Below are positions 4,306 to 35,007 of a DNA stretch of 35,265 nt, piece by piece. A program made the position numbers and the translations under genes. The stretch comes from Nanobdellota archaeon (GTDB lineage: Archaea; Nanobdellota; Nanobdellia; Pacearchaeales; GW2011-AR1). Numbering within the stretch: position 1 is the stretch's first letter; every line of letters starts with the position of its first letter. The stretch is taken from positions 1 to 35,265 of the forward strand of contig JAUYDD010000011.1 in NCBI GenBank assembly GCA_030704765.1, read 5' to 3'. The notes beneath the pieces were generated by a model. It saw only the letters and a list, made by a program, of their open reading frames with translations. It was not told where the DNA came from and ran no database searches.

Positions 4306-4306
4306 T
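4294..4306 (+). repeat. attL core (overlaps the tRNA-Ser 3' end)
   Basis: CGGGCAGCGGCGT is identical to 34995-35007. Confidence 0.8.
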
Positions 4307-4369
4307 CCTAATAAAGTTCTATGCCGTTTTCGAGGGCGGTTTTAATAGCAGAAAAAAACGCTATTAAAC

Positions 4370-13508: not shown

Positions 13509-13619
13509 TTCATTTTTCCAGTTATTTTATATAAAAAGTTAATAGGCTGGAACTATATCAATTTTTCTATTAGACACTTAAATTTTTATATGTGGCTTTT
13601 ATTAGATTTATATAAGAAA

Positions 13620-14813: not shown

Positions 14814-14814
14814 A

Positions 14815-15225: not shown

Positions 15226-15259
15226 ATAAACTTAAAATCTAAAGAATTCTAGTAAAATT

Positions 15260-17602: not shown

Positions 17603-17611
17603 ATTGCGATT

Positions 17612-18415: not shown

Positions 18416-18981
18416 TTTAATAAGCTAAAAAACAATGGAACATATTTTAAAGCAATTCCTCCAACTTTTTTTATTAACTCTAGAGCATTTTCTCCACCTT
18501 CTTTTAAGGTATTAAATTTTTCAAGAATATCTAATAATTTCTTTTTTTTAGGTTCATCTAAATCTTCATCCTCTTCGATTAATTTTTTAAGAACATTAAT
18601 TTGGGAATTATCTATAATTTGGGATACCTGAGAATTGTCTCCAGTCTGGGCTACTTGAACTTGGGAACTATTTGTGACATTAGTTTGATTATGGATAGTT
18701 TGAGTAGCCTTTTCAGTCTCATCAAAATATTCTCTTTTACCTAAAACAACTTCCATACCCTTATGAGATAGTTTTATCTCGTCATCAGAAATATGATGTT
18801 CATTAATAAATAAGGCACTCTTCCAAAGGATATAATCCTTTTTTACTAAATATTTTAATAGTTCTCGCAAGGTTTCCCCTTTTATTAAGGAGTCTTTTTC
18901 TAACCCTTTAAAATCAATTTCTCTGATTTCATTTAAATTAGTTAATATGACTTTCCCATAATCTAAACTTTCTGCTTTCAT
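18412..18981 (-). CDS. Hypothetical protein (189 aa): YjcQ-like wHTH N-terminus, Gln/Asn/Ser-rich linker, C-terminal hydrophobic tail
   Basis: ATGA overlaps with hsdS upstream and with the 267-aa gene downstream. The N-terminal ~80 aa resemble small phage YjcQ-type wHTH proteins (from memory). The protein ends in IALKYVPLFFSLL. Confidence 0.5.
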   Translation of the reverse strand: MKAESLDYGKVILTNLNEIREIDFKGLEKDSLIKGETLRELLKYLVKKDYILWKSALFINEHHISDDEIKLSHKGMEVVLGKREYFDETEKATQTIHNQTNVTNSSQVQVAQTGDNSQVSQIIDNSQINVLKKLIEEDEDLDEPKKKKLLDILEKFNTLKEGGENALELIKKVGGIALKYVPLFFSLLK

Positions 18982-20312: not shown

Positions 20313-21303
20313 TTTTAATCCTCTCTAAACGTTTTTCATGAGTCATCTTTTTAAAAGATGTTCTATTTTTTTGTAAATATTGAGGATCTTCCTTTATTTT
20401 TTTTACAATCAAATTTATTAGTTCATTAGAATAAGTATTTGAGCCTGTTGTTTTGAAGCAATAATGATATTTGCTATTACCTCTGATTTTTTCTTTATAC
20501 AGTATCGCTTGAAAATCATATTGATTAAAAATAATGTTCTTGTCGATTTGTTCTCTTGTTCTATTGATGCAATCTCCGCCTAAATAAGGATGGGTGCTAG
20601 CTGGATCTTTTGGAACTTCGATGAATATTCCTCTTGTTGTTCCCTCTTGTCCTGAAGATAAAACTATATCTGCATCTTTTGGATTCTTGACTAAAGCAAC
20701 TTTATACTCGATTGAAATGCTATACTTTTTATCTTTTAAATTTGCTGAATTATCAATAATTTCCTTTTGTTTTTGTAAAAAGAAATTTATTATTTCTTTG
20801 TTGTACTTCTTTTTTAAAATAGTTGTATTAATATCTCCTAGGTCAAAAATTAAACTTAACATTGCGGGAGAAGTCTTTTTTATAATATCTATATCAAACC
20901 ACTCCTTGAGTAGGTTAACATAATTTAAAACTCCTGCCTGAAAAAGTCCTGTGTAAATAATATCTAGTTCTTCAATAATTAAATGAGTTGCACTGTCTCT
21001 CAATTTTTCAATATCTTCTATATTCTTTCTTATAGGATCATTTTCATTTATGAATATTTTTCCAATAGAATCACGCAAACTTAAAGATCTTCTCTGGATT
21101 CCCCTACTTTTTTTGTAAAATATTGAAGAGGTATTTTTTTTATTTTCAATAATTTTAGCTTTCAGTAATAGTTCCCAAGCATTTGTAAAGAAAAAACAGA
21201 ATGATTCTATTCTATATTTTATTGTAGGTTTATTGTATATTTCTAAACTTAGTAAAAAGGCATCTTGACTTTTTATTAAAAGCCTCTTCGTTAGCTTTTT
21301 CAT
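20305..21303 (-). CDS. Hypothetical protein inserted between hsdM and hsdS (DUF3644-like, from memory)
   Basis: N-terminus SQDAFLLSLEIYNKPTIKYRIESFCFFFTNAWELLLKAKII. ATG 21303 lies 2 nt after the hsdM TGA and is preceded by GGGGAGTGGTGA. Its own stop overlaps the hsdS ATG (ATGGCTGA). Confidence 0.6.
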   Translation of the reverse strand: MKKLTKRLLIKSQDAFLLSLEIYNKPTIKYRIESFCFFFTNAWELLLKAKIIENKKNTSSIFYKKSRGIQRRSLSLRDSIGKIFINENDPIRKNIEDIEKLRDSATHLIIEELDIIYTGLFQAGVLNYVNLLKEWFDIDIIKKTSPAMLSLIFDLGDINTTILKKKYNKEIINFFLQKQKEIIDNSANLKDKKYSISIEYKVALVKNPKDADIVLSSGQEGTTRGIFIEVPKDPASTHPYLGGDCINRTREQIDKNIIFNQYDFQAILYKEKIRGNSKYHYCFKTTGSNTYSNELINLIVKKIKEDPQYLQKNRTSFKKMTHEKRLERIKNG

Positions 21304-21305
21304 CT

Positions 21306-22739
21306 TCACCACTCCCCTTTAATCTCTTTCAAAATATCACTTGTCCTCTTAATATTGACTTCAATCTTGCCTATAATTTCTTCCTTAGATAACTCCTTTT
21401 CTTCTTCGGGTTTAGTTGGATTATTTATATCTAGATTATAATTTTTCTTTTGAATGTCAGCTAAAGAAACCTTCCAACAATACTGCTTAAACTTAGGATC
21501 TTCTCTGTTATTCCACCACTCTTTCTCTAATTGGAACTCCTCGTGCCTTACTGGTTTTGTTTTGTTGTATATTTTATAACCTTCTGGCAATGGATGTTCA
21601 AAATACCAGACATCTTTAGTTCCTTTAGAGTTTTTTTCAAAAAATAAAAGATTTGTTCTTATTCCAGTATAGGGACTAAATACACCATTAGGCAATCTTA
21701 CAATAGTATGCAAATTAAACTCTGTTAGAAGTTTTTCTTTTATTCTTGTTTTGATACCTTCTCCAAATAAAAATCCGTCGGGTAAAACTAAGCCACACTT
21801 TCCTCCATCTCTTAAAAGTTTTGTAATTAAAACTAAAAACAGATCTGCTGTTTCTCTTGTTCTAAATTCTGCTGGAAAATTATTTTCTATGCCATCTTCT
21901 TCTGCTCCACCAAAAGGAGGATTAGTTACAACCACATTAACCTTATCTTTATCAGTGTAATCAATTAATGGCCGAGATAGTGAATTATCTCTCTTAATAC
22001 TAGGAACTTCTATATCATGCAGAATAAGATTAGTCATACAAAGAAGATGTGGAAGAGGCTTCTTTTCAATTCCCCTTAATGTTTTTTCTAACACCTTTTG
22101 ATCTTCAGTTGTCTTAACATTCTTTTTTAAGTGGTTTAATGTAGAAATTAAAAACCCTCCAGTTCCGCATGCAGGATCTAAAACAATATCTCCGAGCTTT
22201 GGATTAACCATATCAACTATAAACTGAGTTACAGGACGAGGAGTATAGAATTCACCAGCACTACCTGCATTCTGCAATTCTTTTAAAATTGTTTCATAAA
22301 TGTCATTAAATTGATGTCTGTCTTCAGCAGTTGTAAAATCAAGCTCATTTATCTTATTAACTACCTGTCTTACTAAGATACCATTTTTCATATAGTTGTA
22401 TGCGTCTTCAAAAACTTGTTTTATAATATAACCCCTCTGATCACTTTTCTCATCCAGTTTTAAACTTTTTAGAGTCTTAAACAAATTATTATTAACAAAA
22501 TCAAGTAGTTCTTCTCCAGTCATTCCTTCAGGATTTACTGCCCAGTTTCTCCATCTTATTTTTTCGGGCAAGGGAGACTTATATTTATCATCTTCTGCTT
22601 CTCTTTCTTCTTCCATTGCATCAAAAACTTTTAAGAATATCATCCAAACCATTTGAGAAATTCTTTGAGCATCACCATCTACACCTGCGTCTTTTCTCAT
22701 TATGTCTCTTACAGATTTTATTATATTGCTTAAGGTCAT
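21306..22739 (-). CDS. hsdM: Type I R-M N6-adenine DNA methyltransferase subunit
   Basis: Motif I VLDPACGTGGFL and motif IV VVTNPPFGG, plus an HsdM N-terminal-type helix bundle. I prefer ATG 22739 (GAGGA lies 6 nt upstream) over the TTG at 22751 used by the track. Confidence 0.9.
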   Translation of the reverse strand: MTLSNIIKSVRDIMRKDAGVDGDAQRISQMVWMIFLKVFDAMEEEREAEDDKYKSPLPEKIRWRNWAVNPEGMTGEELLDFVNNNLFKTLKSLKLDEKSDQRGYIIKQVFEDAYNYMKNGILVRQVVNKINELDFTTAEDRHQFNDIYETILKELQNAGSAGEFYTPRPVTQFIVDMVNPKLGDIVLDPACGTGGFLISTLNHLKKNVKTTEDQKVLEKTLRGIEKKPLPHLLCMTNLILHDIEVPSIKRDNSLSRPLIDYTDKDKVNVVVTNPPFGGAEEDGIENNFPAEFRTRETADLFLVLITKLLRDGGKCGLVLPDGFLFGEGIKTRIKEKLLTEFNLHTIVRLPNGVFSPYTGIRTNLLFFEKNSKGTKDVWYFEHPLPEGYKIYNKTKPVRHEEFQLEKEWWNNREDPKFKQYCWKVSLADIQKKNYNLDINNPTKPEEEKELSKEEIIGKIEVNIKRTSDILKEIKGEW

Positions 22740-22790
22740 CTTTTTCCTCAAGTTTCCTAATAAATCCTACTATAAAAAGACTGCTCTAAT

Positions 22791-22889: not shown

Positions 22890-25800
22890 CTAAGTGACTT
22901 TTTTACTGTTTTTTATAAGCTTTCTTAAAATATTGAATAGATACCTTGATTCAGTCGTTTTACCTAGCTTAGAATATTTTGAAGCAATTTTTCTATCAGT
23001 TACAACAAAAAACCAGTTATTTTCATACTCTTTATTTAATCCATTTATCTTTTCTAATAAAAGTTTCTTATGATGTGTTAATGCTATTCCTGTTTCAACT
23101 TCAATTGCATATTTTTTCTTATTTATTTCAAAAACTAAATCCGGTTTTACAGTTTGATAGATTTCAACTTTAATTTTATTCTTTTCCAAAAATCTTTTTA
23201 TATCCTGAACTAAAAAGAAATGAGGAATTCCTTCATTTGATCTTGGTCTTAAAATATATTTTTCTTTTTTGTTTGATAAAATACTTTTATGCTCTGAGAT
23301 TTTATATCCTAATTTTAACAAATAATCCCTTTCATCTTTGCTTATATTATTGTATTTGAAAAAACCAATACTAGTATCTACATTAATTGTAATATTTTTT
23401 CCATTCTTAACTATTGTAGGTTTTGATTTTTCTTTATCTTTATCTAGATTTAATTCATCAGGATTAGTTGTAATTAGCTTATGTTCTTCAGGGGATGCAA
23501 TAACTTTTATTTTACTATGATCGTCTTCCATAATTAAAAGTCCTTCTCCAACAGCAGCTGTTAAAAGATGCTGTCTTTCAGACTGGCTTAGATTAAAAGT
23601 CTTGCAGATATTATCAATTACCGCTGGCTTTTGCCTCATTAACATTGTATAGGCTGAATTTGCTAGAATTGATTTTCCTGCTTGACTTGCAAACAATCCT
23701 TCAACTTCCTGATTAATTAAAAGTAAGCCCATGTTGAATTTTCTACAAGTCTTAACTATCTCAAAGATATAACCAGCGTCTTCTGTTCTTGAAAGTAATG
23801 ACCATGATTCGTCAATCAAAAGAAGTTTTCTATCTAAATTAGACCTCATTTTCATATAAACATAATCCAAAACTAAAAACATAATTGCAGGCTTTACTTG
23901 TTTTGGCAAATTTCCAATATCAAAACAAACAAACCGATTATCAAAATCAATGTTTGTATGTTTATTCATAAAACTAAAAACTCCATCAACATACATCTCG
24001 AGTCTATTAGTTAGGCTTTGTAATGTTGGTCTTTCTATTTGTACTGCTTTCTTTTCCATAGCCCTTAGAACTTTCAGTAAATCTCCTAATATTGGGGGAG
24101 TATTGTTCCAGGTACTAGGGTCTTTATTTATGCCTTTATCTTTATAGGCTTGAGAAATTGCCTTATCAATTATAGATTTTTGAGGATCTGTTAATTTTCC
24201 TAGCATTACTTGCATTAAATCCATCAAAGCAAGTCTTTTTTCAGCATAATCATGCCCCATTAAATCAAATGGATTAATCATTGTATCAGAATCTCTTGAA
24301 AGGTCTATTCTTTGACCATTGAACTTATCAACTAAACCCCTATACTCTCCTTGTGGATCAATAACCATAACCTTTGTTCCATTAAGTAAATATCTTGTAA
24401 TAAGTAGCTTGCAAAAATAAGACTTTCCTCCTCCAGATTGTGCCAGAACAAGCCCATTTGGGTTTGGGAGCTTGAAAATGTCTTTTATTATAGGGATGTT
24501 GTTCTTATTTAGTCCCAACCAAATTCCACTATTATCAACTTGTAAAAATTGACTCGTAAATGGAAAGAAAGCTGAAAGAGCATCTGTTGTAATGTTTCTA
24601 TTAATATTTAATTCATCAACCCCCAAGGGAGCTGTAGCCTTAAATCCTTGAAGCATTCTTAATCTAGCTGTTCTTGGAAGAATCATTAGACTATTTAATT
24701 CAGATTCTATTTTTTTAGTAAGTAAATCCAGTTCTTTTATTGAATCTGCTTTGCAATTAATGTATAAGCTTACATTAAACAGCCTTTCTTCTCCTTTTTG
24801 TAAGTTTTCTAAAGTCCCTCTTGTATCTTGATATTGAATTTCTAAAGAAGGATTAAATATGCCTTTCATTTTCATAGCATAGAGATCTGCCTGTTGTTTT
24901 TGAAGTTCTCTTGTTAAATCTACAAGCATATTTTCTATAGGATAGGGTTTGATATAAATGCTTAAATCAAAATCTGCGAGAGAACTAACAATTTTATCTA
25001 AAAATCCGGGTTCAACATTTCTAGGATAACCATTTGCATAAATTGTTCTATAAAATTTCTGATTAACCTTTATTTTTCTCCCTTCTTTTGACTTTTTATC
25101 CTCTTCTAAATTATAAATTTCTAAATGATCTGAGTTATTTTCTATATTTTCAGGAGACATTGCATCCCTTATATCTTTTCCTTTGCCATCTCCTGAAAAA
25201 TGATTTATTAAAAGTTTTTTTAATTCTATTGAATTAAGCCGGTCTACTTTCATATTTAATGCATGCAATCTTTCAATACAAATTTCAGTTTGAATTTCAA
25301 TATCTCCGGATTCAGGGATAATAATATAGAAAACTCTGTTCATTATCTTTTTTGTTGAAATCACATCTTCGAGATGTTTTTTATAGCTCTCAAAAATATT
25401 CATGAAATTTTCATCTTGTATCTTTGATTTAAGAGTATCTAGATAACTATCGAGCTTTATGCTTTCGGTTTTCATTAAAATCTGAGTTGGAAAATCCAGA
25501 GAGTTAAGAAACCTTTGAAATGAAAACATAATAGCTTCTCTTTCATTCTTTGGCTTTATGCTAAAATTAATAGGCTGAATTTTTAAAACAGAAACTTTTT
25601 TATTGTTTGATAAAACTATAAGATCTTTATCTATATCTTTAACTCCTATGAATTTTTTAAGTTTATAATCTCCTTTGGATAATTTTCTATATTTTAAATA
25701 AATCCTATAATTTTTAATTAATGTGTCAAGATTTAGAAACATAAAACATATCCCTAGTCCTGAGGATAAAAACATGAGTGTAAATTTTATGTAACTATTG

Positions 25801-25925
25801 GATATATTCTTAAAAAATAATAAAGCTAAGATTCCAAATACAAATCCATAGGATAATTGTTTAAAGGTCAAACCAAACATTATTTTTTCTTTATACTCTA
25901 ATTGTTGTGGAATTTGGTAGCTCAT
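22890..25925 (-). CDS. VirB3/PrgI-like membrane domain fused to a VirB4/TrbE-type conjugation ATPase, with an extra C-terminal PD-(D/E)XK-like domain
   Basis: N-terminus LEYKEKIMFGLTFKQL plus two TM helices (PrgI/VirB3-like). Walker A LAQSGGGKSY (about 24419-24442) and Walker B LLLIDESW. The last ~155 aa contain HFFLVQDI...KPDLVFE...YAIEVETG. Confidence 0.8.
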   Translation of the reverse strand: MSYQIPQQLEYKEKIMFGLTFKQLSYGFVFGILALLFFKNISNSYIKFTLMFLSSGLGICFMFLNLDTLIKNYRIYLKYRKLSKGDYKLKKFIGVKDIDKDLIVLSNNKKVSVLKIQPINFSIKPKNEREAIMFSFQRFLNSLDFPTQILMKTESIKLDSYLDTLKSKIQDENFMNIFESYKKHLEDVISTKKIMNRVFYIIIPESGDIEIQTEICIERLHALNMKVDRLNSIELKKLLINHFSGDGKGKDIRDAMSPENIENNSDHLEIYNLEEDKKSKEGRKIKVNQKFYRTIYANGYPRNVEPGFLDKIVSSLADFDLSIYIKPYPIENMLVDLTRELQKQQADLYAMKMKGIFNPSLEIQYQDTRGTLENLQKGEERLFNVSLYINCKADSIKELDLLTKKIESELNSLMILPRTARLRMLQGFKATAPLGVDELNINRNITTDALSAFFPFTSQFLQVDNSGIWLGLNKNNIPIIKDIFKLPNPNGLVLAQSGGGKSYFCKLLITRYLLNGTKVMVIDPQGEYRGLVDKFNGQRIDLSRDSDTMINPFDLMGHDYAEKRLALMDLMQVMLGKLTDPQKSIIDKAISQAYKDKGINKDPSTWNNTPPILGDLLKVLRAMEKKAVQIERPTLQSLTNRLEMYVDGVFSFMNKHTNIDFDNRFVCFDIGNLPKQVKPAIMFLVLDYVYMKMRSNLDRKLLLIDESWSLLSRTEDAGYIFEIVKTCRKFNMGLLLINQEVEGLFASQAGKSILANSAYTMLMRQKPAVIDNICKTFNLSQSERQHLLTAAVGEGLLIMEDDHSKIKVIASPEEHKLITTNPDELNLDKDKEKSKPTIVKNGKNITINVDTSIGFFKYNNISKDERDYLLKLGYKISEHKSILSNKKEKYILRPRSNEGIPHFFLVQDIKRFLEKNKIKVEIYQTVKPDLVFEINKKKYAIEVETGIALTHHKKLLLEKINGLNKEYENNWFFVVTDRKIASKYSKLGKTTESRYLFNILRKLIKNSKKVT

Positions 25926-26806
25926 ATAAAATATTTTCCAACTGCCATGGCTATTCCTGCTGTTTTTTCTCCTGTCTTAACTGCAGATTTTAAAGCTGAA
26001 AATATAATAAAATAAAACATAAGAAAATTGACAATGCCAAAAGCAGTAATCATGACTAAAATCTTAAAGTTTTGAAATACAGGTATATCAATTAATTTTG
26101 AACATACTAATAGTATTAATGAATCAAAGAATGTTATGAAAATGCAAGTTCCAAGAAAATTAAGAATAAGTTTCCCATAATTATTAATAGGGGGTATGAA
26201 ATAAAGAAATATTCCTATTGGAAGAAAAACAACTCCTCCTGCAACTATAATATATCTAAATGTAAGCATTATTACAGTTAGGATTAAAGTTATAACATAG
26301 AGAAAAGCAAAAAAGAACTGCAAGCCTATGTTTACAATATTATCTGCTGTAATTAAAAAGAATTTTTGATCAACTAAACTAATAACTCCTGCAGTCAATA
26401 AACTATTAACATCAATGACCGCTGAATAAATAAAGTATGAAGCCTGAACTAAAACAATCATAACAAAAATGTTTCTGAACCACTCTTTTGCTTTTGTTCT
26501 TTTTGCAGCATCATAACCTGAAATCATAAAGTTAAATCCTGAATATAACATTAAGAGTCCATAAAATATAGAAAGAACATAAAGAATAATTGCCCAGAGT
26601 GAAACAAACATCTCTAGTTTTATTGGCTCGGTCATTAGAGCCTTTGTTAATGTAAGTAATGGTTGGATGGGTGAGTTAAGAATATTTATGAAAAAATCAT
26701 ATAACTTTTGAGGAAGGCAAGCTGACAGATTTAAAAGACCACATTCTTCTTCTGCACTTACTAATGGAATTAAAAATAAAGGTAATCCAAACAAAGCTTT
26801 CTTCAT
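25922..26806 (-). CDS. Polytopic membrane protein, VirB6/TrbL-like by position and topology
   Basis: Signal-like N-terminus MKKALFGLPLFLIPLVSA followed by at least six hydrophobic helices. ATG 26806 is preceded by GGAGG and forms an ATGA overlap with the upstream gene. Its stop overlaps the VirB4-like start. Confidence 0.55.
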   Translation of the reverse strand: MKKALFGLPLFLIPLVSAEEECGLLNLSACLPQKLYDFFINILNSPIQPLLTLTKALMTEPIKLEMFVSLWAIILYVLSIFYGLLMLYSGFNFMISGYDAAKRTKAKEWFRNIFVMIVLVQASYFIYSAVIDVNSLLTAGVISLVDQKFFLITADNIVNIGLQFFFAFLYVITLILTVIMLTFRYIIVAGGVVFLPIGIFLYFIPPINNYGKLILNFLGTCIFITFFDSLILLVCSKLIDIPVFQNFKILVMITAFGIVNFLMFYFIIFSALKSAVKTGEKTAGIAMAVGKYFI

Positions 26807-28173
26807 ATTATTCCTCCAAAACACTTTCTTAATGCAACATAAAAGAAATAGTTCAGAATTCCAAATATTGAAAGACTCCAGATAGTGTTTGTTTTTTCTT
26901 TATCTTCTACAAAGATTATTTTTTCAGAATGATAATCACTTACATCTGCAGAGACTTTATTATTCTGCAAATTAGCAATAAAACTTGAATTTCCTTTTGC
27001 TATCTTGCTTTGATTTCCATAGCTTAGACTTACTGAAATATTATTTGGATAAACATAAACTTGTATTGTTTCATTTGGATCATAGGTTAATTTATCAGTC
27101 TCCACATAAATAGAAATATTTGAATTTTCAGAAGTACAATTTTTATCAATTACCTTAAAAAAATCAAATGCTTTTATCTTGCAATTATTTGTATTTTTTA
27201 CAATTAAGTCGTTCCCATTTTTTAATAGGTTATTCGATGTTTCCTGATTATAATCATAAGCCCTTAAAGTATAAACATAATAAGGCTCTTTTGAATAATT
27301 AATATTATAAGTAAATTTATTGTACTTAAAATAAGAATCATTAAAAATAAGATAAAATGAATCTGAGTAATTGGGTCTTATTCTGTTTGTTCCACCATAA
27401 GAATCTATTGTTTTAATATCTCCAGTTAAATTATTTGAATAATGTTTTACTTTAAGAGTATCTTCTATACTTATGCTATCTTGCTGAATTTCATTATAAT
27501 TAAAACTGCATCGATAGGAATAAACGCATTTTCCATTTCTTCTGTAAGCACAATATTTCTCCCACTTATAATGATCTATATTAAATCCTACATTTATTCG
27601 ATATTGTGCTTTTATTTCAGAGTCTGAATTAATGTTTACTTCAACTAACTTTCCACTTCCATGGTAGATATTATTTACATAAATTCTATTTTCAGAGTAA
27701 TTTTGAATTAAAGTATAAATTCTCTTGCAATCTCCTTGGTTATTTTGAGGATAATAAGATGAATAATAATTTTGAGGGGTATTTGTTTTATAATTAAATG
27801 CTGAAAGAACCTTTGTCTTGTCAGGAACATATAAATTATCATTATAAATAATAGAAGGCATTGATGTAAAAATACTAAGCCAAGCATCTCTTACAAACTG
27901 TCCATTATAGGTTTTAACTCCTGTTGGAGGATTTATTATTTTAATATTAGTATTTCTTTGAAAAATATAATCCTGATCTGGAAAGAACTTATTTTTATAA
28001 TCTAAGTTTGAAACAAGAATATCTTTTTCTTGTAAAGTTAAGTTAGAATTAATTATATTTATACAGGTATTATAATTAGCAGAAGAAACAGAATTACAAT
28101 CTAAAGAAAAAATAAAAGGGGTTTGCACTAAGAATATCAGTGCAAACACCCAAAATAAAAAATATTTTGTCAT
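26803..28173 (-). CDS. Secreted Asn/Tyr-rich protein with a C-terminal TM anchor, unknown function
   Basis: N-terminal signal MTKYFLFWVFALIFLVQTPFIFS and C-terminal helix IWSLSIFGILNYFFYVAL. ATG 28173 lies 1 nt after the pilin-like gene stop. The track uses TTG 28185. Confidence 0.55.
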   Translation of the reverse strand: MTKYFLFWVFALIFLVQTPFIFSLDCNSVSSANYNTCINIINSNLTLQEKDILVSNLDYKNKFFPDQDYIFQRNTNIKIINPPTGVKTYNGQFVRDAWLSIFTSMPSIIYNDNLYVPDKTKVLSAFNYKTNTPQNYYSSYYPQNNQGDCKRIYTLIQNYSENRIYVNNIYHGSGKLVEVNINSDSEIKAQYRINVGFNIDHYKWEKYCAYRRNGKCVYSYRCSFNYNEIQQDSISIEDTLKVKHYSNNLTGDIKTIDSYGGTNRIRPNYSDSFYLIFNDSYFKYNKFTYNINYSKEPYYVYTLRAYDYNQETSNNLLKNGNDLIVKNTNNCKIKAFDFFKVIDKNCTSENSNISIYVETDKLTYDPNETIQVYVYPNNISVSLSYGNQSKIAKGNSSFIANLQNNKVSADVSDYHSEKIIFVEDKEKTNTIWSLSIFGILNYFFYVALRKCFGGII

Positions 28174-28174
28174 G

Positions 28175-28513
28175 CTAACCCACAATAAAGTTAACTACCA
28201 ATGGAGCTGCCCAGATTATGATCAGTCCTATGATAACATACATGCCAATGTTCTTTGCCTGTTCTCTTTTTCCAGGATTTCCAGCAGAAGTTATAAAGCC
28301 GATTCCTGCAAATAAGAGAACAACTACTGCAATAGCTGTTGACAGATATTTAGCCATATTATAGATCTTCATTACAGGCGTAAGTATCTGATCAAACGTT
28401 GCCTTATCCTGTGTAGATATTGGCTGATTAAAGTCAACAGCTAAAACAAACTGGATAGCAATTACTGTTACAAAGAATACTAAACCAAGCAGTGCTAGAT
28501 GTTTTTGTTTCAT
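28175..28513 (-). CDS. VirB2/TrbC-like conjugative pilin candidate (112 aa)
   Basis: Signal peptide ending in VLA, then two hydrophobic helices joined by a short polar loop, SAGNPGKREQAKN. This is the topology of VirB2/TrbC and of the archaeal CedA1/TedC-type pilins. Confidence 0.55.
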   Translation of the reverse strand: MKQKHLALLGLVFFVTVIAIQFVLAVDFNQPISTQDKATFDQILTPVMKIYNMAKYLSTAIAVVVLLFAGIGFITSAGNPGKREQAKNIGMYVIIGLIIIWAAPLVVNFIVG

Positions 28514-28764
28514 TTTTTCCTCCTGAATTTAATTGAGCCAGAGTCTTTATTTTCCAATTTCCTAAATTCTCTTATTTTCTCAAAATACTTTTTCTTGTGT
28601 TTCCACTTAAGAAACTGAAAACAAGACTCACAGACTTCTCCTTCATTTATTTCGCTTTTGCAAACAATACAATTTTTCATGGAAGGTTGATTTAGAACAT
28701 GCTTAAATAGGGCTAGGTTAAAACTTGTGTACACAATTGTGTACACAAATAGGTACACAATCAT
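28510..28764 (-). CDS. Small zinc-ribbon protein, start uncertain (28764 or ATG 28680)
   Basis: Contains CIVC...CESC. The N-terminal 28 codons of the track ORF are encoded by three tandem 12-bp DNA repeats and may be regulatory DNA rather than coding. Confidence 0.45.
   Translation of the reverse strand: MIVYLFVYTIVYTSFNLALFKHVLNQPSMKNCIVCKSEINEGEVCESCFQFLKWKHKKKYFEKIREFRKLENKDSGSIKFRRKK
28726..28761. promoter_or_regulatory. Three tandem 12-bp repeats with a palindromic core (TGTGTACACAAT / TGTGTACACAAA / TAGGTACACAAT)
   Basis: Read directly from the sequence. TGTGTACACA is self-complementary. The repeats sit at the head of the T4SS-like operon, in the divergent region facing the methyltransferase gene. 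Confidence 0.6.
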
Positions 28765-28925: not shown

Positions 28926-29963
28926 ATGATGCAAGTAAATAAAGTGCATCAAATAGAGGTTTTAGAAGGCTTGAAAGAACTACCTGATAATTCTATTGAT
29001 TGCATTGTTACAAGTCCGCCTTATTGGAATTTAAGAGATTATAATGTCAAAGACCAGATAGGCTTGGAAAAAGATCCAGAAGATTTTGTTAATAAAATAG
29101 TTGAAATAATGAAGGAATGTAAAAGGGTTATAAAACCTACTGGAACAATCTGGTTAAACTTAGGAGACTCTTATTTTAAAAGTAATAGTAATAATTGCAA
29201 ATCTAACTGGTTACAACAAAAACAAAGATTGCTAATTCCATTTAGAATAGCAATAAAATGCCAAAATGAATTGGGACTAATATTAAGAAATGATATTACT
29301 TGGGTTAAGCAGTTATGGAATTGTAAAACTAAAGAATCTTTTGGATCTTCAATGCCGACAGGGGTTAAAGACAGATTAAATACAACGTCTGAATCACTTT
29401 TCTTTTTTGTTAAGTCTAATAAATATTATTTTAATTTAGATAATATAAGGATACCTTATCGAGATAAAAAAATAACAAATTCTCAAGGCAAAAATCCAGG
29501 TGATTGCATAATGTTTCCATTAGAACCTAGCAGAGAAAAGCATATTGCAATGTTTCCTAAAACTCTCCCAGAATTTTGTATTAAAGCGGGCTGTCCTAAA
29601 CAAATATGCAAAAAATGCAGTACTCCTAAATTAATAATAAAAAAGTCAGATAGCCCATATTCTTTTAATATTAGAGTAAGAGATGTTAAAAATGGAAGAA
29701 TTAAAAGTTTAGATAGAAAAGCTTCACTAAAAGAAACTAAAGATTATAATGAAAAAAACTATGTCTCTAAAAAAGAAGATCAAATTATTTTAAGCTGCAA
29801 TTGCAAAGCAGGATTTAATTCAGGTATTGTTTTAGACCCTTTCATGGGTTCTGGAACTACTGCTATTGTAGCCAAAAAACTCGGTATGAATTTTATTGGT
29901 TTTGATTTGAATAAAAATTATATCAAAATAGCTAATAGGAGGATTTCTCAAATTGGCAATTGA
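28926..29963 (+). CDS. Beta-class N4-cytosine/N6-adenine DNA methyltransferase, with no adjacent endonuclease
   Basis: Motif IV IVTSPPYW lies near the N-terminus, HIAMFPKTLPEF is present, and motif I VLDPFMGSGTT lies near the C-terminus (the IV-before-I order is the beta class). A ~75-aa Cys-containing insertion precedes motif I. Confidence 0.85.
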   Translation: MMQVNKVHQIEVLEGLKELPDNSIDCIVTSPPYWNLRDYNVKDQIGLEKDPEDFVNKIVEIMKECKRVIKPTGTIWLNLGDSYFKSNSNNCKSNWLQQKQRLLIPFRIAIKCQNELGLILRNDITWVKQLWNCKTKESFGSSMPTGVKDRLNTTSESLFFFVKSNKYYFNLDNIRIPYRDKKITNSQGKNPGDCIMFPLEPSREKHIAMFPKTLPEFCIKAGCPKQICKKCSTPKLIIKKSDSPYSFNIRVRDVKNGRIKSLDRKASLKETKDYNEKNYVSKKEDQIILSCNCKAGFNSGIVLDPFMGSGTTAIVAKKLGMNFIGFDLNKNYIKIANRRISQIGN

Positions 29964-30650: not shown

Positions 30651-33600
30651 ATGAAAAGATATGGTGTTATCAGTCTAGGTATTGTAGTAATACTACTCTG
30701 TGTCGGATTTATTTTTGCAGAAAATATTGAAGAATATAATTTAGACAACACACAAAAACTGACTATTCCTGAATTTTTTTCTAATGTAACAAGTTTTTTT
30801 AATAAAGAATATTCAAATAATAATTCAATTGTTCATTTTATTCAATTAGATTTTCAAGATACTTCTGTTTTAGCAGATAATATTAATCGTACATTAGATA
30901 ATGTAGATTTAGAACATGTCCAGGAGATTGGGGGGAAAATTTATGTTATTTACCCCAATTATATTGAATGGACAAGCCAGAGTAAAATAATTCATATAGA
31001 AATTTATTCTGGAAATGCTGAATTATTAAATAATTCTATTTTTAATTATTATAGTAGTTTATATCCTAGTGATTTAGATAACTATGCGAGTCCTCCAGTC
31101 CAATCAAAATCGATGAATATGTTAATATTAGCTTTACAATCTAGTAGTCAGTGTGATAGATGTGGTGAAGGTTTATTTAATAATTGTGATAAAGATGAAT
31201 GTTATGGTTTAGGGTCTTCTTGTTATCTAGGTTGGGCTTCATGTACTGGATGGGGAGATTGTTGGTGTTATGATGGTTCAAATATCTTTAATGGAAATGA
31301 CGATTACTGCAAATATAAGGGACAGAGAAAAAATGGATGTTCAAGAAATGAATATGATTGTGATTGGGACTCTGAATGTGCTTATGGACTTTCCTGTAAA
31401 GGTCCTATAGGCGGAGCTGCAGATGGATGTTGTTATTCTTATGAGGCATGGGATACTAATTCTATGTCTTGTTATGACCCAAGATTAAGTCATGGTCAAT
31501 ATGACTGTGATTGGGACTCTGAATGTAAACCTGGATTAGTCTGTGATGGTAAAACTGCAACAACTGACTTTAATGATGAAGGTTGTTGTTATAATTATGA
31601 AAATTGGAATAACAATGCTAAAGTTTGTAATTATGCGATTTATGGAACTGTTTATAATTCTGTATTAAATTCCAATGGAGCTTTTACTCAAACACCTTAT
31701 TCTAACTTGAAATTAGTTATTAAGATAAGTAATCATGAGGCTTCATGGTTAACAACTAATTATGTTGAGACATCGACAGATTCAAGCGGAAATTTCTATT
31801 TTAATCCTGAAAGATATATTTCTAGTTGGAATTCATTAGCATTTGGAGTTAACCTATTTAATTGGAAAGTTGATAATATCTATGCAGTTCAAGGAAATGA
31901 AGTTATTGGTGAATGGACCAATGATTTTAATAATGGTTTTTGGGGAGGAGAAGATTCTGGTTATCAATCAGGTTTAAGGTCAAGACATCAGATAGTTATG
32001 ATACATACAAATATGCCTTATTGGAGGATAAGTGAATTTTCAAGTAATACTGCGATGGTTAAATCTATGGCGATTCAAACAAATGAGCAACAGCAGAATA
32101 TAATAAATCCTCCAACAAATATGCTCTCAAATGAAAAAATGACTTCAAATAAAATTGTAGGAACTCTTATAATAAAAGATGAGGGAGATTATAACTTTAA
32201 AGTTTCTTCTAGTGGAGGAGTTAAATTATTAATAGATGGCAAGGAAATTATTAATGACTGGAATGACCCTATAAATAATACTTATGAAAGATATGGTAAA
32301 GTTTATCTTTATAATGGAAATCACACCTTATCTCTTGATTATTATGAATATGAAAATAATCAAAGATTGAATATTGATTGGGAAACACCTAAACCAATTA
32401 AAGTAAATCAGCTATATGAAGTTTTTATTCCAAGTGATATTAATCAAAAAGACTATCCAAATCCTTCGGAAGGACAAAAACTAATGGCTACAGCTCAAGT
32501 CCTTTCAGCATCTTCTTCGTATACTGATAATCAAGATAATTATCAAGTATCTTTTATTGAAGACCCAAAAGTATACGAGACATCAAAATCTTATACTCCT
32601 TCCAGAAGACCTCTCTTGTTAGTTCATGGAATGGGTGGAACTGATGGATATTGGGATAATTTGTATCCCTATTTTTCAAATGATTTTGATGTATGGCAAT
32701 TTTATTATCCAAATGACCAAGAGATAAAATATTCATCTGCATTACTAAGAGAAGGAACTGATTTTATTTTAAAAAATTATAATTCTAATTCTGTGGATAT
32801 TGTTTCTCATAGTATGGGTGGATTAGTCTCACATGGATATAGTTCAAATTTAGGACAAAGTCCAAGTGGAATTAGAGTTAGTTATGGAAATAATGTAAAT
32901 AAAATTATAACCTTAGCATCTCCTCTTTATGGTTCTCATCTTGCAAATGTTATTTCTGAAACAACAGACTTTGGATTTGGTTGTAAAGCTACAGAATTTG
33001 TTAATAATATAAGAGAAGGTATATTTGGTGGAGTTCGAAGTGATGCTCCTGCATATAGGGATATAGCTGTAGGAAGTAATTTTACTTTCCAATTAGGAAA
33101 TAAAAATTTGAATGCAAATATTAAATATTATACTATAGCCGGTACAGATGCTTATACTCTTGTAAAAGTCTGTAGAGAGGCTGATGATAATACCATGGAT
33201 GGTTTAGTATCAACATCAAGTGCTAGTTTATTAAATAAAAACATAGATTTATACACGATCTATACAACACATTCAGGATTTACATATACTTGTTCTGATA
33301 CTTTAGCTTATTTGTTTGCCTGTATTCCATTAGTATCAACACCTTCTCCATTACAACAGATTTCAAACATGGTCTATTCATTTACAAAAGGAACAAACCT
33401 TAGTTCTAGTAATTATCAATATAAATTGACAAATCTTAACTATAATCCTTATACTGAAGGCGCAGTTCTAATAAAGACCAAAGAAAATGTATCTGGTGTA
33501 AAATTAAAATTTATATCTACAAACAAAACATATTATCTTTATAGAAATCAATTTAACCCTATCTGGTACTTCTGGGGAAATTCCGGTCAAGATGGATTAA

Positions 33601-34994: not shown

Positions 34995-35007
34995 CGGGCA
35001 GCGGCGT
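34995..35007 (+). repeat. attR core (displaced partial tRNA-Ser 3' end)
   Basis: CGGGCAGCGGCGT is identical to 4294-4306. The upstream GAAT resembles the tRNA GATTC with an indel. Confidence 0.8.

What the first reader, a model, noticed from the sequence alone, without database searches (positions are those of the whole stretch)
22890..28764. Minimal five-gene conjugation/T4SS-like operon without relaxase or coupling protein
Five overlapping minus-strand genes make up the operon:
1. A small zinc-ribbon protein.
2. A VirB2/TrbC-topology pilin candidate (signal peptide plus two TM helices with a short basic loop).
3. A 456-aa secreted, C-terminally anchored Asn/Tyr-rich protein.
4. A VirB6-like polytopic membrane protein.
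5. A 1011-aa VirB3(PrgI)-VirB4 fusion.

This VirB2 + VirB6 + VirB4 core is also what the archaeal Ced/Ted DNA-transfer systems share with bacterial conjugation. The PrgI-like N-terminus points to the Firmicutes/Actinobacteria/Tenericutes/Archaea-type VirB4 clade.

No VirD4/TraG, relaxase or VirB11-like gene is visible anywhere in the element. How DNA is processed and recruited is therefore open, and so is whether this is export, import or a host-contact device.

The operon lies 2 kb from a giant adhesin/lipase gene, which fits a cell-cell contact island.
Basis: partly seen in the sequence, partly recalled or inferred. Interest (0 to 1): 0.75.

Follow-up and report, generated by a model that had tools for sequence, protein, structure and literature searches.

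The report
Minimal DNA-transfer module with built-in nuclease
A mobile element integrated in the genome of a tiny symbiotic (DPANN) archaeon carries a stripped-down conjugation-type machine whose motor protein is fused to a DNA-cutting domain, which may explain how such archaea handle DNA for transfer without the usual relaxase enzyme.

Summary
The five-gene minus-strand operon at 22890-28764 is real. The window is a Nanoarchaeota (Woese-/Pacearchaeota, DPANN) contig.

**What holds up**
- The pilin passes Pfam T4SS_pilin.
- The 1011-aa ATPase passes NCBIfam's VirB4 CD1110 model, which fits the monoderm MPF_FATA type.
- Its N-terminus is a VirB3/PrgI-like membrane module. In relatives this module is a separate gene.

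- The last ~180 residues of the ATPase form an extra PD-(D/E)xK nuclease-fold domain. E898, D929, E942, E944 and K959 are 97-100% conserved, and the domain is present in 73/73 complete homologues.
- The same domain also occurs as a free-standing gene. In 4/4 cases checked it lies directly after a tyrosine integrase of the family that flanks many cassettes.
- The cassette lies inside a ~30.7-kb element integrated in tRNA-Ser. The element is bounded by a 13-nt direct repeat (4294-4306 and 34995-35007) and has an integrase at 4370-5566.
- Relatives repeat the order tRNA, integrase, DNA methyltransferase, cassette.

**What does not hold up**
- VirB6 homology of the 300-aa protein is unproven.
- The link to the giant adhesin gene is not conserved.

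**Verdict**
No coupling protein or relaxase was found. The most likely reading is a minimal conjugation-type DNA translocator in which the fused nuclease processes the DNA. The direction of transfer is unresolved. I class it as a new variant of a known kind.

The parts
4223..4308 (+). tRNA-Ser(tga). Its 3' end (4294-4306, CGGGCAGCGGCGT) is the attL core of the integrated element.
   Evidence: ARAGORN. A 13-nt exact repeat of the 3' end lies at 34995-35007, and 0 of 100 shuffles give two copies.
4370..5566 (+). Tyrosine recombinase/integrase next to attL.
   Evidence: Pfam Phage_integrase 5.6e-24. NCBIfam XerA_Arch-like 1.4e-34, below that model's cutoff.
13488..22751 (.). Cargo of the element: a PDDEXK_1 nuclease (13488-14813) and a type I R-M system. 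The R-M system comprises the R subunit (15260-17602), the S subunit (18978-20312), the M subunit (21306-22751) and embedded genes, including DUF3644/EC042_2821 (20305-21312).
   Evidence: Pfam. HsdR matches PDB 3H1T at 9.7e-172. HsdM/HsdS assignments rest on homologues that carry Pfam annotation in L001.
22890..25925 (-). 1011-aa VirB3(PrgI-like)-VirB4 ATPase with an added C-terminal nuclease-fold domain.
   Evidence: NCBIfam CD1110 VirB4 340.6 > 325. PDB 4AG5 7.5e-34. More than 760 homologues, and the 120 listed are 55-100% identical.
25626..25925 (-). N-terminal ~100 aa of the ATPase: a VirB3/PrgI-like membrane hairpin.
   Evidence: PrgI 24.3-26.7 bits against a cutoff of 27. A hydrophobic segment lies at aa 46-70. 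It is a separate ~104-141-aa ORF in about 15 related loci.
22893..23423 (-). C-terminal ~177 aa (aa ~835-1011): a small beta/alpha subdomain followed by a PD-(D/E)xK nuclease-fold domain. The motif is E898...H902...P-D929...E942-x-E944-T-G946...K959.
   Evidence: VirB4 models stop at aa ~800-826 and plasmid VirB4 matches at ~797-849. AF2 model pLDDT 89. Foldseek hits in the PDB and BFVD are almost all PD-(D/E)xK nucleases: Hjc probability 0.97-1.0, Cdn1, NucS, MUS81, RecU, restriction enzymes and VRR-NUC. The domain is present in 73/73 complete homologues, with catalytic-type residues 97-100% conserved.
25922..26806 (-). 294-aa polytopic membrane protein in the 'VirB6 position'. It has a signal peptide, a two-Cys motif, a pilin-like TM hairpin and further TM helices.
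   Evidence: No Pfam or NCBIfam hit for the window protein. T4SS_pilin hairpin hits occur in 16/47 family members and 9/25 distant members. AF2 pLDDT 71, with no Foldseek match. Conserved in 70/83 loci.
26803..28173 (-). 456-aa secreted, C-terminally anchored, Asn/Tyr-rich protein. In many relatives it is replaced by a ~120-138-aa version that shares only the signal peptide, the N-terminal Cys motif and the C-terminal anchor.
   Evidence: No Pfam or NCBIfam hit.
28175..28513 (-). 112-aa VirB2-type pilin: signal peptide plus two TM helices joined by a basic loop.
   Evidence: Pfam T4SS_pilin 55.9 bits (cutoff 26.6), TrbC 27.9. NCBIfam Mbov_0395 pilin-like 1.4e-5, below cutoff.
28510..28680 (-). 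56-aa zinc-ribbon protein, the first gene of the operon. The 84-aa ORF reaching 28764 is an over-extension.
   Evidence: The MKxCxxC...CxxC..F.KWKY motif is conserved in 30/55 loci. It is called as 56-58 aa in L086 and L088.
28702..28760 (-). Divergent promoter region. Three direct repeats of TTGTGTAC(AC) (28727-28760, 12-nt spacing) lie upstream of a TATA-like TATTTAAG (28702-28709), about 22 nt before the ATG at 28680.
   Evidence: Relatives carry different repeats at the same position.
28926..29963 (+). N6/N4 DNA methyltransferase, transcribed divergently from the cassette. It is preceded by a conserved 45-aa ORF (28805-28942) and followed by an 83-aa ORF (29953-30204).
   Evidence: Pfam N6_N4_Mtase 2.6e-47. 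A DNA methyltransferase lies within 1.5 kb upstream of the pilin in 26/48 loci, mostly divergent. It forms part of the block shared with near-identical cassettes.
30651..34865 (+). 1404-aa secreted PA14 / Ig-like / PGAP1-like alpha/beta-hydrolase protein. It is element cargo, not a conserved partner of the cassette.
   Evidence: Pfam. No homologue in 83 related loci.
34995..35007 (+). attR core: a direct repeat of the tRNA-Ser 3' end.

Best explanation
The operon is the DNA-transfer module of a ~30.7-kb mobile element integrated into tRNA-Ser of a Woese-/Pacearchaeota (DPANN) archaeon. It belongs to a large family of such modules.

**Shown**
- The module contains a VirB2-type pilin, a VirB3-VirB4 ATPase of the monoderm (MPF_FATA-like) type, two further conserved membrane/surface proteins and a small zinc-ribbon protein.
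- A DNA methyltransferase is transcribed divergently from it.
- The ATPase carries a conserved C-terminal nuclease-fold domain.
- The same nuclease domain also occurs free-standing. It was directly downstream of an integrase in all four cases checked; in the two with retrievable DNA the integrase is of the cassette-linked family.
- The element has att repeats and an integrase.

**Inferred mechanism**
1. The pilin and the surface-anchored protein build a short conjugative-type pilus or contact structure.
2. The polytopic protein forms the membrane channel.
3. The membrane-anchored VirB4 hexamer powers both assembly and, because no coupling protein is present, DNA movement.
4. Its cytoplasmic nuclease domain nicks or cuts the DNA at the channel entrance, doing the job that a relaxase does in bacteria.
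5. The methyltransferase marks the element's or the cell's DNA.

I favour export, that is self-transfer of the element. Integrase-plus-nuclease elements without a cassette would then be mobilisable hitch-hikers. The direction of transport is not established.
For: **Identity of the parts**
-.
- The closest plasmid VirB4 proteins are from Firmicutes, Actinobacteria and Mollicutes at 23-32% identity. None of the 25 listed matches reaches beyond residue 849, and no match covers 80% of the query.

**Nuclease domain**
- AF2 pLDDT 89.
- Fold matches are coherent and of the PD-(D/E)xK type.
- Present in 73/73 homologues, with D929, E942 and E944 at 100%, K959 at 99% and E898 at 97%.
- Free-standing versions exist, soluble at ~167-180 aa or TM-anchored at ~280-300 aa, and the motif is visibly kept in the sequences inspected.
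- In 4/4 look-ups the free-standing gene lies 15-27 nt downstream of a ~385-400-aa gene. That gene has a Phage_integrase hit in two cases. In the two with DNA (L118, L119) it is 57-64% identical to the cassette-linked integrases.

**Mobile-element context**
- 13-nt att repeat in the window, with an integrase next to attL.
- The order tRNA, integrase, cassette (with a methyltransferase between them in most) recurs in at least 9 loci.
- att repeats bracket the cassette in L033, L069 and L003.
- An integrase lies within 10 kb in 25 (+6) of 83 loci, and its divergence correlates with that of VirB4 (r=0.6).
- Two or three copies occur in some genomes.
- Near-identical cassettes (87-94% nt) share only the methyltransferase-plus-cassette block and have different cargo.
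- A 14.7-kb element (L033) holds little beyond integrase, methyltransferase, cassette, a reverse-transcriptase homologue and a MoxR/VWA-like pair (assigned from sequence motifs).

**Literature**
- Archaeal conjugative plasmids lack recognisable relaxases (PMC9905601).
Against: - No coupling ATPase (VirD4/TcpA type) was found in the window or recurrently in the 83 flanks. Every known conjugative T4SS has one (PMC12102498). The one-ATPase layout instead matches DNA importers (Ced/Ted; ComB from my own knowledge).
- VirB4 itself is not known to translocate DNA.
- VirB4 is more conserved than neighbouring housekeeping genes: mean pairwise identity 60% against TFB's 41%, and 58-77% against SerRS's 46-73%. 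In three genomes it tracks SerRS divergence. This looks like a cellular function under strong selection.
- In L091 an 85-97% identical cassette sits 4.7 kb from the same tRNA-Ser with no recognisable integrase between them.
- The nuclease assignment rests on fold and motif only. Foldseek E-values are modest (7e-4 to 0.2), sequence-profile searches of the PDB and Pfam found nothing, and hhalign against an Hjc protein was not significant.
- VirB6 homology is unproven.
- No empty attB site and no excised circle were found.
Confidence: 0.45

Rival explanations
1. DNA (or nucleic-acid) import machine, Ced/Ted- or ComB-like. The cell that makes the pilus pulls DNA in from a partner or host cell. The VirB4-fused nuclease cuts the incoming DNA in the cytoplasm, either for recombination or for nucleotide salvage in an organism that probably cannot make nucleotides. 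The adjacent methyltransferase and R-M systems tell self DNA from imported DNA.
For: - The layout has a single ATPase with no coupling protein and no relaxase. This is the layout of the Ced/Ted importers (PMC9905601) and of ComB (my own knowledge).
- VirB4 is under strong purifying selection and co-diverges with SerRS.
- A DNA methyltransferase lies at a fixed position upstream in 54% of loci, and R-M systems are frequent neighbours.
- One free-standing homologue has a precomputed hit to CoiA, a competence-protein family, and a BFVD 'competence protein' is among the fold matches.
- Ultrasmall Patescibacteria carry a chromosomal, relaxase-less T4SS that is essential for epibiotic growth (PMC12102498).
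Against: - The cassette lies inside att-bounded, integrase-bearing elements with changing cargo and occurs in several copies per genome.
- The nuclease domain travels with an integrase even where no cassette is present, which fits an element function better than a cellular uptake function.
- Two unrelated methyltransferase families occupy the same position next to one conserved nuclease, which argues against a matched restriction-modification pair.
Confidence: 0.3
2. Host-contact or effector-delivery device, as proposed for the Patescibacteria T4SS and the nanohaloarchaeal SPEARE/VirB4 proteins. The pilus and the variable surface protein mediate attachment to the host cell and move proteins or other molecules. 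The nuclease domain would be an accessory or a toxin-like activity.
For: - The middle surface protein has a highly variable ectodomain (about 60 to 400 aa), as expected for host-specific adhesion.
- The window element also carries a giant PA14/lipase-like surface protein.
- There is precedent in PMC12102498 and PMC10266531.
Against: - The nuclease domain follows the cytoplasmic ATPase domain on the same chain, so it should act inside the producing cell.
- The giant protein is not conserved next to the cassette (0/83).
- No effector-like genes are conserved around the cassette. What recurs is DNA-related: integrases, methyltransferases, R-M systems and, in a few loci, a UvrD helicase.
Confidence: 0.12
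3. Decayed remnant of a bacterial-type conjugation system that no longer transports anything. Alternatively, an assembly or binning artefact of bacterial origin.
For: It has few components compared with bacterial systems. A few related contigs carry bacterial or Methanosarcinales labels.
Against: - More than 760 intact homologues exist with very high conservation and invariant Walker and nuclease residues.
- Gene order is conserved across 83 loci.
- The context is archaeal: a TrmB regulator in the window, TFB genes in related loci, an archaeal XerA-like integrase, and promoter features that look archaeal to me.
Confidence: 0.03

Closest known systems
MPF_FATA conjugation systems of monoderm bacteria (pCF10 Prg, ICE CTn2/CD1110 family, Mycoplasma ICE Mbov_039x)
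   Same: - VirB4 scores above the curated cutoff of the CD1110 family, and the next-best model is the Mycoplasma ICE VirB4.
- The N-terminus is PrgI/VirB3-like.
- The pilin matches T4SS_pilin/TrbC and, weakly, the Mbov_0395 pilin-like family.
- It is carried on an integrative element.
   Different: - No coupling protein, relaxase, VirB1-type hydrolase or VirB8-like protein was detected.
- VirB4 carries a C-terminal PD-(D/E)xK nuclease-fold domain. None of the 5000 best-scoring VirB4-carrying plasmid records covers 80% of the query, the listed matches stop by residue 849, and the nuclease region alone finds no plasmid match.
- The host is archaeal.
- Identity is only 23-32%.
Archaeal Ced (Sulfolobales) and Ted (Thermoproteales) DNA-import systems (PMC9905601)
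   Same: A minimal set of VirB2-like pilin, polytopic membrane protein and a single VirB4-family ATPase. No relaxase and no coupling protein.
   Different: - The paper does not describe Ced/Ted as lying on integrative elements. It reports Ted next to HerA/Rad50/ParA-like genes, and no fused nuclease is mentioned.
- Here the module sits in att-bounded elements with an integrase and a methyltransferase.
- Sequence homology to CedA/A1/B or TedA/B/C was not tested.
- That paper does not mention DPANN.
Patescibacteria (CPR) chromosomal T4SS (PMC12102498)
   Same: - The host is an ultrasmall episymbiont.
- The VirB4 is related to MPF_FATA.
- It has T4SS_pilin-type pilins.
- A relaxase is generally absent.
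   Different: - The CPR system is chromosomal, in some genomes near dnaA. It has TrsD and a separate VirB3, and no VirB3-VirB4 fusions were found there.
- 'Nuclease' does not occur in that paper.
- Here there is a VirB3-VirB4-nuclease fusion in integrase-linked elements of archaea.
Integrative and conjugative / integrative mobilisable elements (ICE/IME)
   Same: - Integration in a tRNA 3' end with short direct repeats.
- A tyrosine integrase at one end.
- A conserved transfer backbone with variable, defence-rich cargo.
- A smaller relative consisting of an integrase plus a DNA-processing gene only.
   Different: The DNA-processing enzyme is a PD-(D/E)xK-fold domain rather than a HUH or other known relaxase, and it is fused to VirB4. 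Transfer has never been observed.
PD-(D/E)xK nucleases (Hjc, NucS/EndoMS, restriction enzymes; MOB_C-type relaxases as a conceptual precedent, from my own knowledge)
   Same: - The fold matches.
- The signature is E...PD...ExE plus a downstream Lys. BamHI likewise has Glu in place of the usual Lys (my own knowledge).
   Different: - No significant sequence similarity to any Pfam, NCBIfam or PDB family.
- It is attached to a secretion ATPase or to a TM anchor.
- Its relation to MOB_C was not tested.

Membership tests
Type IV secretion / conjugation system (VirB4-based) | VirB4-family ATPase | tested here: met
   NCBIfam CD1110 VirB4 340.6 bits > 325 cutoff. Pfam P-loop_TraG 6.3e-29. PDB 4AG5 7.5e-34.
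Type IV secretion / conjugation system (VirB4-based) | VirB2-type pilin | tested here: met
   Pfam T4SS_pilin 55.9 bits > 26.6; TrbC 27.9 bits, equal to its cutoff.
Type IV secretion / conjugation system (VirB4-based) | VirB3-like membrane partner of VirB4 | tested here: inconclusive
   PrgI scores 24.3-26.7 bits against a cutoff of 27. Several homologues have a precomputed PrgI hit. The segment is a separate ~104-141-aa ORF in about 15 relatives.
Type IV secretion / conjugation system (VirB4-based) | VirB6/TrbL-family polytopic channel protein | tested here: inconclusive
   No Pfam or NCBIfam TrbL/VirB6 hit in 47 close and 25 distant members. Foldseek E > 4. No PDB profile hit. The only support is a precomputed 'weak' TrbL_3 hit in about 10% of homologues. 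Topology and gene position fit.
Conjugative (DNA-exporting) T4SS | Type IV coupling protein (VirD4/TraG/TcpA) | tested here: not met
   None found in the window by Pfam or NCBIfam. None occurs among the recurrent gene families (three or more loci) in the flanks of 83 loci. The rest of the genome was not available.
Conjugative (DNA-exporting) T4SS | Relaxase (MOB family) | tested here: not met
   No relaxase family hit in the window. MOBscan was not available. The nuclease-fold domain is a candidate functional substitute only.
Integrative (conjugative) element | Site-specific integrase plus direct repeats at a tRNA gene | tested here: met
   Integrase at 4370-5566. A 13-nt repeat of the tRNA-Ser 3' end lies 30.7 kb apart, with 0/100 shuffles reaching two copies. 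Analogous repeats occur in L033, L069 and L003.
Integrative (conjugative) element | Demonstrated excision or transfer (attP circle, empty attB) | tested here: inconclusive
   One exact-match scan for the predicted empty site found nothing. Reads could not be examined.
PD-(D/E)xK nuclease superfamily | Restriction-endonuclease-like fold with acidic catalytic residues on the core strands | tested here: met
   AF2 pLDDT 89. Foldseek PDB and BFVD matches are almost exclusively members of this superfamily. D929, E942 and E944 are 100% conserved, K959 99% and E898 97%. Sequence-profile searches were negative.
PD-(D/E)xK nuclease superfamily | Nuclease activity | not testable with these tools
   Requires biochemistry.
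Ced/Ted archaeal DNA-import systems | Sequence or structural homology to CedA/CedA1/CedB or TedA/TedB/TedC | not tested
   No Ced/Ted sequences were at hand. Only the component list was compared.
Ced/Ted archaeal DNA-import systems | Imports DNA into the pilus-bearing cell | not testable with these tools
   Direction of transport cannot be inferred from sequence.

The most novel reading that the evidence does not exclude
The PD-(D/E)xK-fold domain is the long-missing archaeal counterpart of the conjugative relaxase. It occurs either fused to VirB4 or encoded next to the integrase, sometimes with its own membrane anchor. Woese-/Pacearchaeota would then host a two-tier network:
- self-transmissible elements (integrase + methyltransferase + minimal T4SS with a VirB4-nuclease);
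- mobilisable elements (integrase + nuclease only).

In this network a single VirB4 motor does the work of VirB4, coupling protein and relaxase.
Probability: 0.25. Interest if true: 0.85.

Novelty: new variant of a known kind. Interest (0 to 1): 0.68.

Why it matters
How archaea process DNA for conjugation-like transfer is an open question. Archaeal conjugative plasmids and the Ced/Ted systems have no recognisable relaxase (PMC9905601).

This locus offers a concrete, testable candidate: a conserved nuclease-fold domain physically attached to the only motor of a minimal T4SS. The same domain is paired with the integrase in related elements that lack a T4SS.

It also shows that the very abundant, uncultured Woese-/Pacearchaeota carry a widespread family of integrative elements with a transfer-type apparatus. 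I found no description of these in the searchable literature.

The elements are defence-rich, carrying R-M systems and, in relatives, a retroelement. They therefore bear on gene flow and host interaction in DPANN archaea.

If the machine imports rather than exports, it would be a candidate route for nucleic-acid acquisition by organisms that I understand to lack nucleotide synthesis.

Tried and rejected
**Nuclease domain, sequence searches**
- Pfam and NCBIfam on the C-terminal domain alone found nothing.
- An HMM of the domain against PDB sequences found nothing.
- tblastn of the domain against 72,556 plasmids found nothing.
- hhalign against an Hjc protein from L084 was not significant, although it aligned PD...ExE with D...EVK.

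**VirB6 test**
- Pfam on 8 + 47 + 9 + 25 family members gave only T4SS_pilin hairpin hits.
- Profile searches of the PDB gave nothing.
- The AF2 model (pLDDT 71) gave no Foldseek match.
- A profile search of 1.84 billion representatives returned 425 clusters (150 listed); the 25 distant listed members scanned link to no named family.

**Element boundaries and relatives**
- The first att search with the 25-nt tRNA end and 3 mismatches found nothing. The 13-nt core was found only by an exact-word scan.
- The empty-site search in metagenomes gave 0 hits.
- Two scans of IMG/VR found no relatives, so the element is not a recognised virus.

**Other checks**
- Rfam: no RNA family in the window.
- Cargo proteins of the small L033 element, and the window's 391-aa ORF, had no PDB hits.
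- Literature searches for DPANN or Woesearchaeota with VirB4/T4SS found no description of this cassette. One search failed on syntax.

**Ideas considered and dropped**
- The contig is a circular plasmid. The two ends share only a 76%-identical 41-nt stretch, and tRNA/PD40/Fic flanks lie on both sides of the att sites.
- The methyltransferase and the fused nuclease form a matched R-M pair. This is unlikely because two unrelated methyltransferase families sit next to one conserved nuclease.

Full report
**1. Observation**

The window is AT-rich (about 25-33% G+C in 1-kb windows). It is identical to a 35,265-bp contig of a 'Nanoarchaeota archaeon' MAG. Five overlapping minus-strand ORFs occupy 22890-28764.

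- Pilin (28175-28513): passes Pfam T4SS_pilin at 55.9 bits (cutoff 26.6) and reaches the TrbC cutoff.
- 1011-aa protein: passes NCBIfam's curated cutoff for 'VirB4-like conjugal transfer ATPase, CD1110 family' (340.6 > 325). The Mycoplasma ICE VirB4 is the second-best model, and F-type, VirB4_CagE and TrbE models score far lower. It matches the solved VirB4 C-terminal domain 4AG5 at 7.5e-34.
- Plasmid relatives: the closest plasmid-borne VirB4 proteins are from Firmicutes, Actinobacteria and Mollicutes, at 23-32% identity. The VirB4 call and the monoderm (MPF_FATA-like) affinity therefore hold.
- N-terminus of the ATPase: about 100 residues score just under the PrgI cutoff. In about 15 related loci this part is a separate 104-141-aa ORF. 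The window protein is thus a VirB3-VirB4 fusion.
- Third gene: encodes a signal-peptide protein with 22.6% Asn+Tyr.
- First gene: a CxxC...CxxC protein. Its conserved form is 53-63 aa, so the true gene is probably 28510-28680. The rest of the 84-aa ORF covers the promoter.

**2.

The NCBIfam VirB4 models and the solved VirB4 domain stop at residue ~800-826, and the listed plasmid VirB4 matches at 797-849. The remaining ~180 residues are conserved in every relative.

- An alignment of 20 homologues has invariant E, H, D, E-x-E and G positions.
- An AlphaFold2 model has pLDDT 89.
- Foldseek against the PDB returns almost only PD-(D/E)xK nucleases: Cdn1, YaeQ, NucS/EndoMS, archaeal Hjc (probability 0.97-1.0), splicing endonuclease, MUS81, RecU, Ecl18kI and TnsA.
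- Foldseek against BFVD returns restriction enzymes, endonucleases, Holliday-junction resolvases, VRR-NUC and a 'competence protein'.
- The E-values are modest (7e-4 to 0.2). Sequence profiles find nothing in Pfam, NCBIfam or the PDB, and hhalign against an Hjc protein is not significant. The assignment therefore rests on fold plus motif.
- The motif is strong. All 73 complete VirB4 homologues from related loci have the domain. H902, D929, E942, E944 and G946 are 100% conserved, K959 and Y984 99%, and E898 97%.
- No plasmid in PLSDB matches the domain.

**3. The domain also exists on its own, next to an integrase**

A profile search with the domain found many proteins much shorter than VirB4, some of them on long contigs. 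They fall into two size groups: about 167-180 aa, and about 280-300 aa with an N-terminal hydrophobic segment. The NES..H / PD / ExE motif is visibly kept in the sequences inspected.

All four that I looked up lie 15-27 nt downstream of a 385-400-aa gene. That gene has a Pfam Phage_integrase hit in two of the four. In the two with retrievable DNA (L118, L119) it is 57-64% identical to the integrases that flank many cassette loci.

The domain is therefore linked to integrative elements whether or not a secretion cassette is present. It sits on the cytoplasmic side of a membrane anchor, which is either VirB4 or its own TM segment.

**4. The other two membrane proteins**

*The 294/300-aa polytopic protein.*
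- It is conserved in 70/83 loci, but VirB6 homology could not be shown.
- The Pfam and NCBIfam scans run here gave no TrbL/VirB6 hit for the window protein, for 47 close relatives or for 25 distant relatives.
- No PDB profile hit was found.
- A pLDDT-71 model has no Foldseek match.
- The recurrent signal is a T4SS_pilin-like hairpin near the N-terminus. It appears in 16/47 and 9/25 members, and one member exceeds the cutoff.
- A precomputed TrbL_3 hit, marked 'weak', exists in about 10% of homologues.
- I treat it as the probable channel subunit by position and topology only.

*The 456-aa protein.*
- It is one of two forms. Many loci have a 120-138-aa version instead.
- The short version shares only the signal peptide, an N-terminal two-Cys motif and the C-terminal anchor.
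- The Asn/Tyr-rich ectodomain is therefore a variable insert, as expected for a surface-exposed, possibly adhesive part.

**5. Context: an integrated element**

tRNA-Ser(tga) lies at 4223-4308 and is followed by a tyrosine integrase at 4370-5566. The last 13 nt of the tRNA (CGGGCAGCGGCGT, 4294-4306) recur as a direct repeat at 34995-35007. No shuffle gives two copies, and the word has 11 G/C in an AT-rich sequence. This defines a ~30.7-kb element that contains:
- the integrase;
- assorted cargo (TrmB regulator, phosphoesterases, macro domain, PDDEXK_1 nuclease);
- a type I R-M system, with the R subunit matching PDB 3H1T;
- the cassette;
- the divergent N6/N4 methyltransferase;
- the giant PA14/lipase-like protein.

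Outside the repeats, PD40-repeat sequences occur on both sides. In relatives, a Fic gene like the one at 266-1162 lies just downstream of the same tRNA-Ser.

**6. The family**

A scan of one genome per species found 103 relatives (80 kept). By record title nearly all are Woese-/Pacearchaeota/Nanoarchaeota MAGs or unclassified archaea; about a dozen are labelled Methanosarcinales and one Bacteroides. Identity is 43-93%, and some genomes have two or three copies.

- Gene order is zinc-ribbon, pilin, middle protein, polytopic protein, VirB4.
- A DNA methyltransferase (N6_N4 or the unrelated MT-A70) lies within 1.5 kb upstream of the pilin in 26/48 loci. 23 of the 27 methyltransferase genes found there are divergent, and only three lie elsewhere in the flanks.
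- The commonest flanking family is a ~385-aa tyrosine integrase, present in 25 loci, with a second integrase family in six more. Its pairwise divergence correlates with that of VirB4 (r=0.6).
- The order tRNA(+), integrase, cassette (with a methyltransferase between them in most) recurs with tRNA-Asp, Gly and Glu.
- Direct repeats of the tRNA end bracket the cassette in L033 (15 nt, 14.7 kb), L069 (19 nt, 16.7 kb) and L003 (24 nt, 20.2 kb).
- Cassettes 87-94% identical in DNA to the window share only window positions ~22770-29600/30236, that is, the methyltransferase plus the cassette. Downstream they have different cargo: type I R-M here, a reverse transcriptase with a bAvd-like gene (DGR-like) in L086, and a 987-aa methyltransferase in L088.
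- No coupling ATPase or relaxase recurs in the flanks.
- The 14.7-kb L033 element has little beyond integrase, methyltransferase, cassette, a reverse-transcriptase homologue and a MoxR/VWA-like pair (assigned from sequence motifs).
- IMG/VR holds no relatives.

**7. Interpretation**

Identity is well supported. This is a conjugation-type (VirB2/VirB3/VirB4) module that forms the backbone, together with an integrase and a methyltransferase, of tRNA-integrating elements in DPANN archaea.

Mechanism is inferred. With a single ATPase and no coupling protein or relaxase, the fused nuclease is the obvious DNA-processing activity.

*For export (self-transfer) as the slightly more likely direction:*
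- the cassette lives in att-bounded elements with changing cargo;
- the nuclease accompanies the integrase even without a cassette. This mirrors bacterial mobilisable elements, which carry an integrase and a relaxase and borrow a T4SS.

*Against export:*
- all known conjugative T4SSs have a coupling protein (PMC12102498);
- the one-ATPase layout is that of the importers Ced/Ted;
- VirB4 is more conserved than neighbouring SerRS or TFB and tracks SerRS divergence in three genomes, which suggests a function valuable to the cell;
- L091 has a near-identical cassette beside the same tRNA with no integrase.

Import, for recombination or nucleotide salvage, is therefore a serious rival. A pure adhesion or effector role is less likely, because the recurrent neighbours are DNA enzymes and the nuclease is cytoplasmic.

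**8. Literature**

In the searchable library I found the following:
- the Patescibacteria T4SS study (PMC12102498): relaxase-less, chromosomal, no VirB3-VirB4 fusion, and no mention of a nuclease;
- the Ced/Ted paper (PMC9905601): no DPANN, and no relaxase in archaeal plasmids;
- a report that nanohaloarchaeal giant SPEARE proteins contain a VirB4-like domain (PMC10266531).

I found no description of this Woese-/Pacearchaeota cassette, of a VirB4-nuclease fusion or of integrase-nuclease pairs. Database annotations already call the ATPase 'VirB4 component/TraC', so the presence of a VirB4 homologue is not new. The architecture and its element context appear to be.

**9. Verdict**

This is a new variant of a known kind: a minimal T4SS on an integrative element, with a VirB4-fused nuclease.

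Confidence by claim:
- T4SS-type module in an integrated element: about 0.9.
- The extra domain is a PD-(D/E)xK-fold nuclease: about 0.8.
- It processes DNA for transport: about 0.6.
- Export rather than import: about 0.45 against 0.30.

Noticed in passing
window 28702-28760; L004, L086, L088, L016, L003, L014, L018 at the equivalent position: Two or three direct repeats lie just upstream of a TATA-like box in the divergent promoter between the methyltransferase and the cassette. The repeat sequence differs between loci: TTGTGTACAC x3 here and in L088, TGAGTAC x3 in L004/L086, AAGTAC x3 in L016, TTACGTAA x2 in L003 and TGATATCA x2 in L014. Many contain short palindromes (GTAC, TACGTA, GATATC). 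These could be operator sites or methylation targets.
   Followed up: partly
window 29600-29822 (inside the methyltransferase gene 28926-29963): This stretch does not align with the otherwise 87-88% identical L004 and L086, where the methyltransferase is 268-271 aa instead of 345. It looks like a swapped target-recognition region, and it co-varies with the promoter repeat sequence (window/L088 against L004/L086).
   Followed up: partly
window 28805-28942 (+): A 45-aa ORF overlaps the start of the methyltransferase gene. Gene callers also call it in L086 and L088. It may be a small controller protein. No family hit was sought.
   Followed up: no
window 2721-4100 (-): A PD40 (WD40-like beta-propeller) gene is built of eight or nine 132-nt tandem repeats that are 66-88% identical. 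The reading frame is broken into two ORFs (2784-3737 and 3801-4100). A further PD40-like repeat unit lies at 35184-35203, beyond attR.
   Followed up: no
window 119-159 and 35120-35160: The two contig ends share a 41-nt stretch at 76% identity. In relatives (L096, L107, L110) a Fic gene like the one at 266-1162 lies just downstream of the same tRNA-Ser. This suggests a second Fic-type locus beyond the right end, not a circular contig.
   Followed up: partly
window 17612-21312 (-): The type I R-M operon has extra genes between its subunits. Two unknown ORFs (267 aa and 189 aa) lie next to HsdS. A DUF3644 + EC042_2821 restriction-endonuclease-like protein (335 aa) lies between HsdS and HsdM. Similar insertions occur in the R-M operon of L001.
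   Followed up: no
L086 10499-20422 and L086 13617-13811: Downstream of a 96%-identical VirB4 there are two reverse-transcriptase genes with a bAvd-like gene (DGR-like). There is also a second, 82%-identical copy of the last 195 nt of virB4 about 3 kb downstream. This looks like a footprint of cargo exchange by recombination at the 3' end of virB4.
   Followed up: no
L010, L011, L012, L017, L031, L034, L040, L041, L059: Genes are inserted between the polytopic protein and VirB4: DNA methyltransferases in L010/L011 and a UvrD-type helicase in L059. In L059, L060, L066, L080 and L081 the polytopic protein is about 660-704 aa, with its family domain in the C-terminal half. These variants may point to accessory functions.
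   Followed up: partly
L084 4212-5337: A different (274-aa) tyrosine integrase is immediately followed by a Pfam Hjc-family nuclease (104 aa), near another cassette. Integrase plus PD-(D/E)xK nuclease pairs may be a general feature of these elements.
   Followed up: no
window 6112-6381 (-): An 89-aa protein with no family hit lies near the integrase. It has homologues in 15 of 83 cassette loci, usually a few genes from VirB4. It may be another backbone gene of the element, for example a regulator or excision factor.
   Followed up: no
L091 (Ga0265297_10003314): The same tRNA-Ser is followed 4.7 kb later by an 85-97% identical cassette, in the opposite orientation relative to the tRNA. Two unknown genes (385 aa and 800 aa) lie between them, with no recognisable integrase. 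A C5-methyltransferase/EcoRII-like pair lies downstream.
   Followed up: partly
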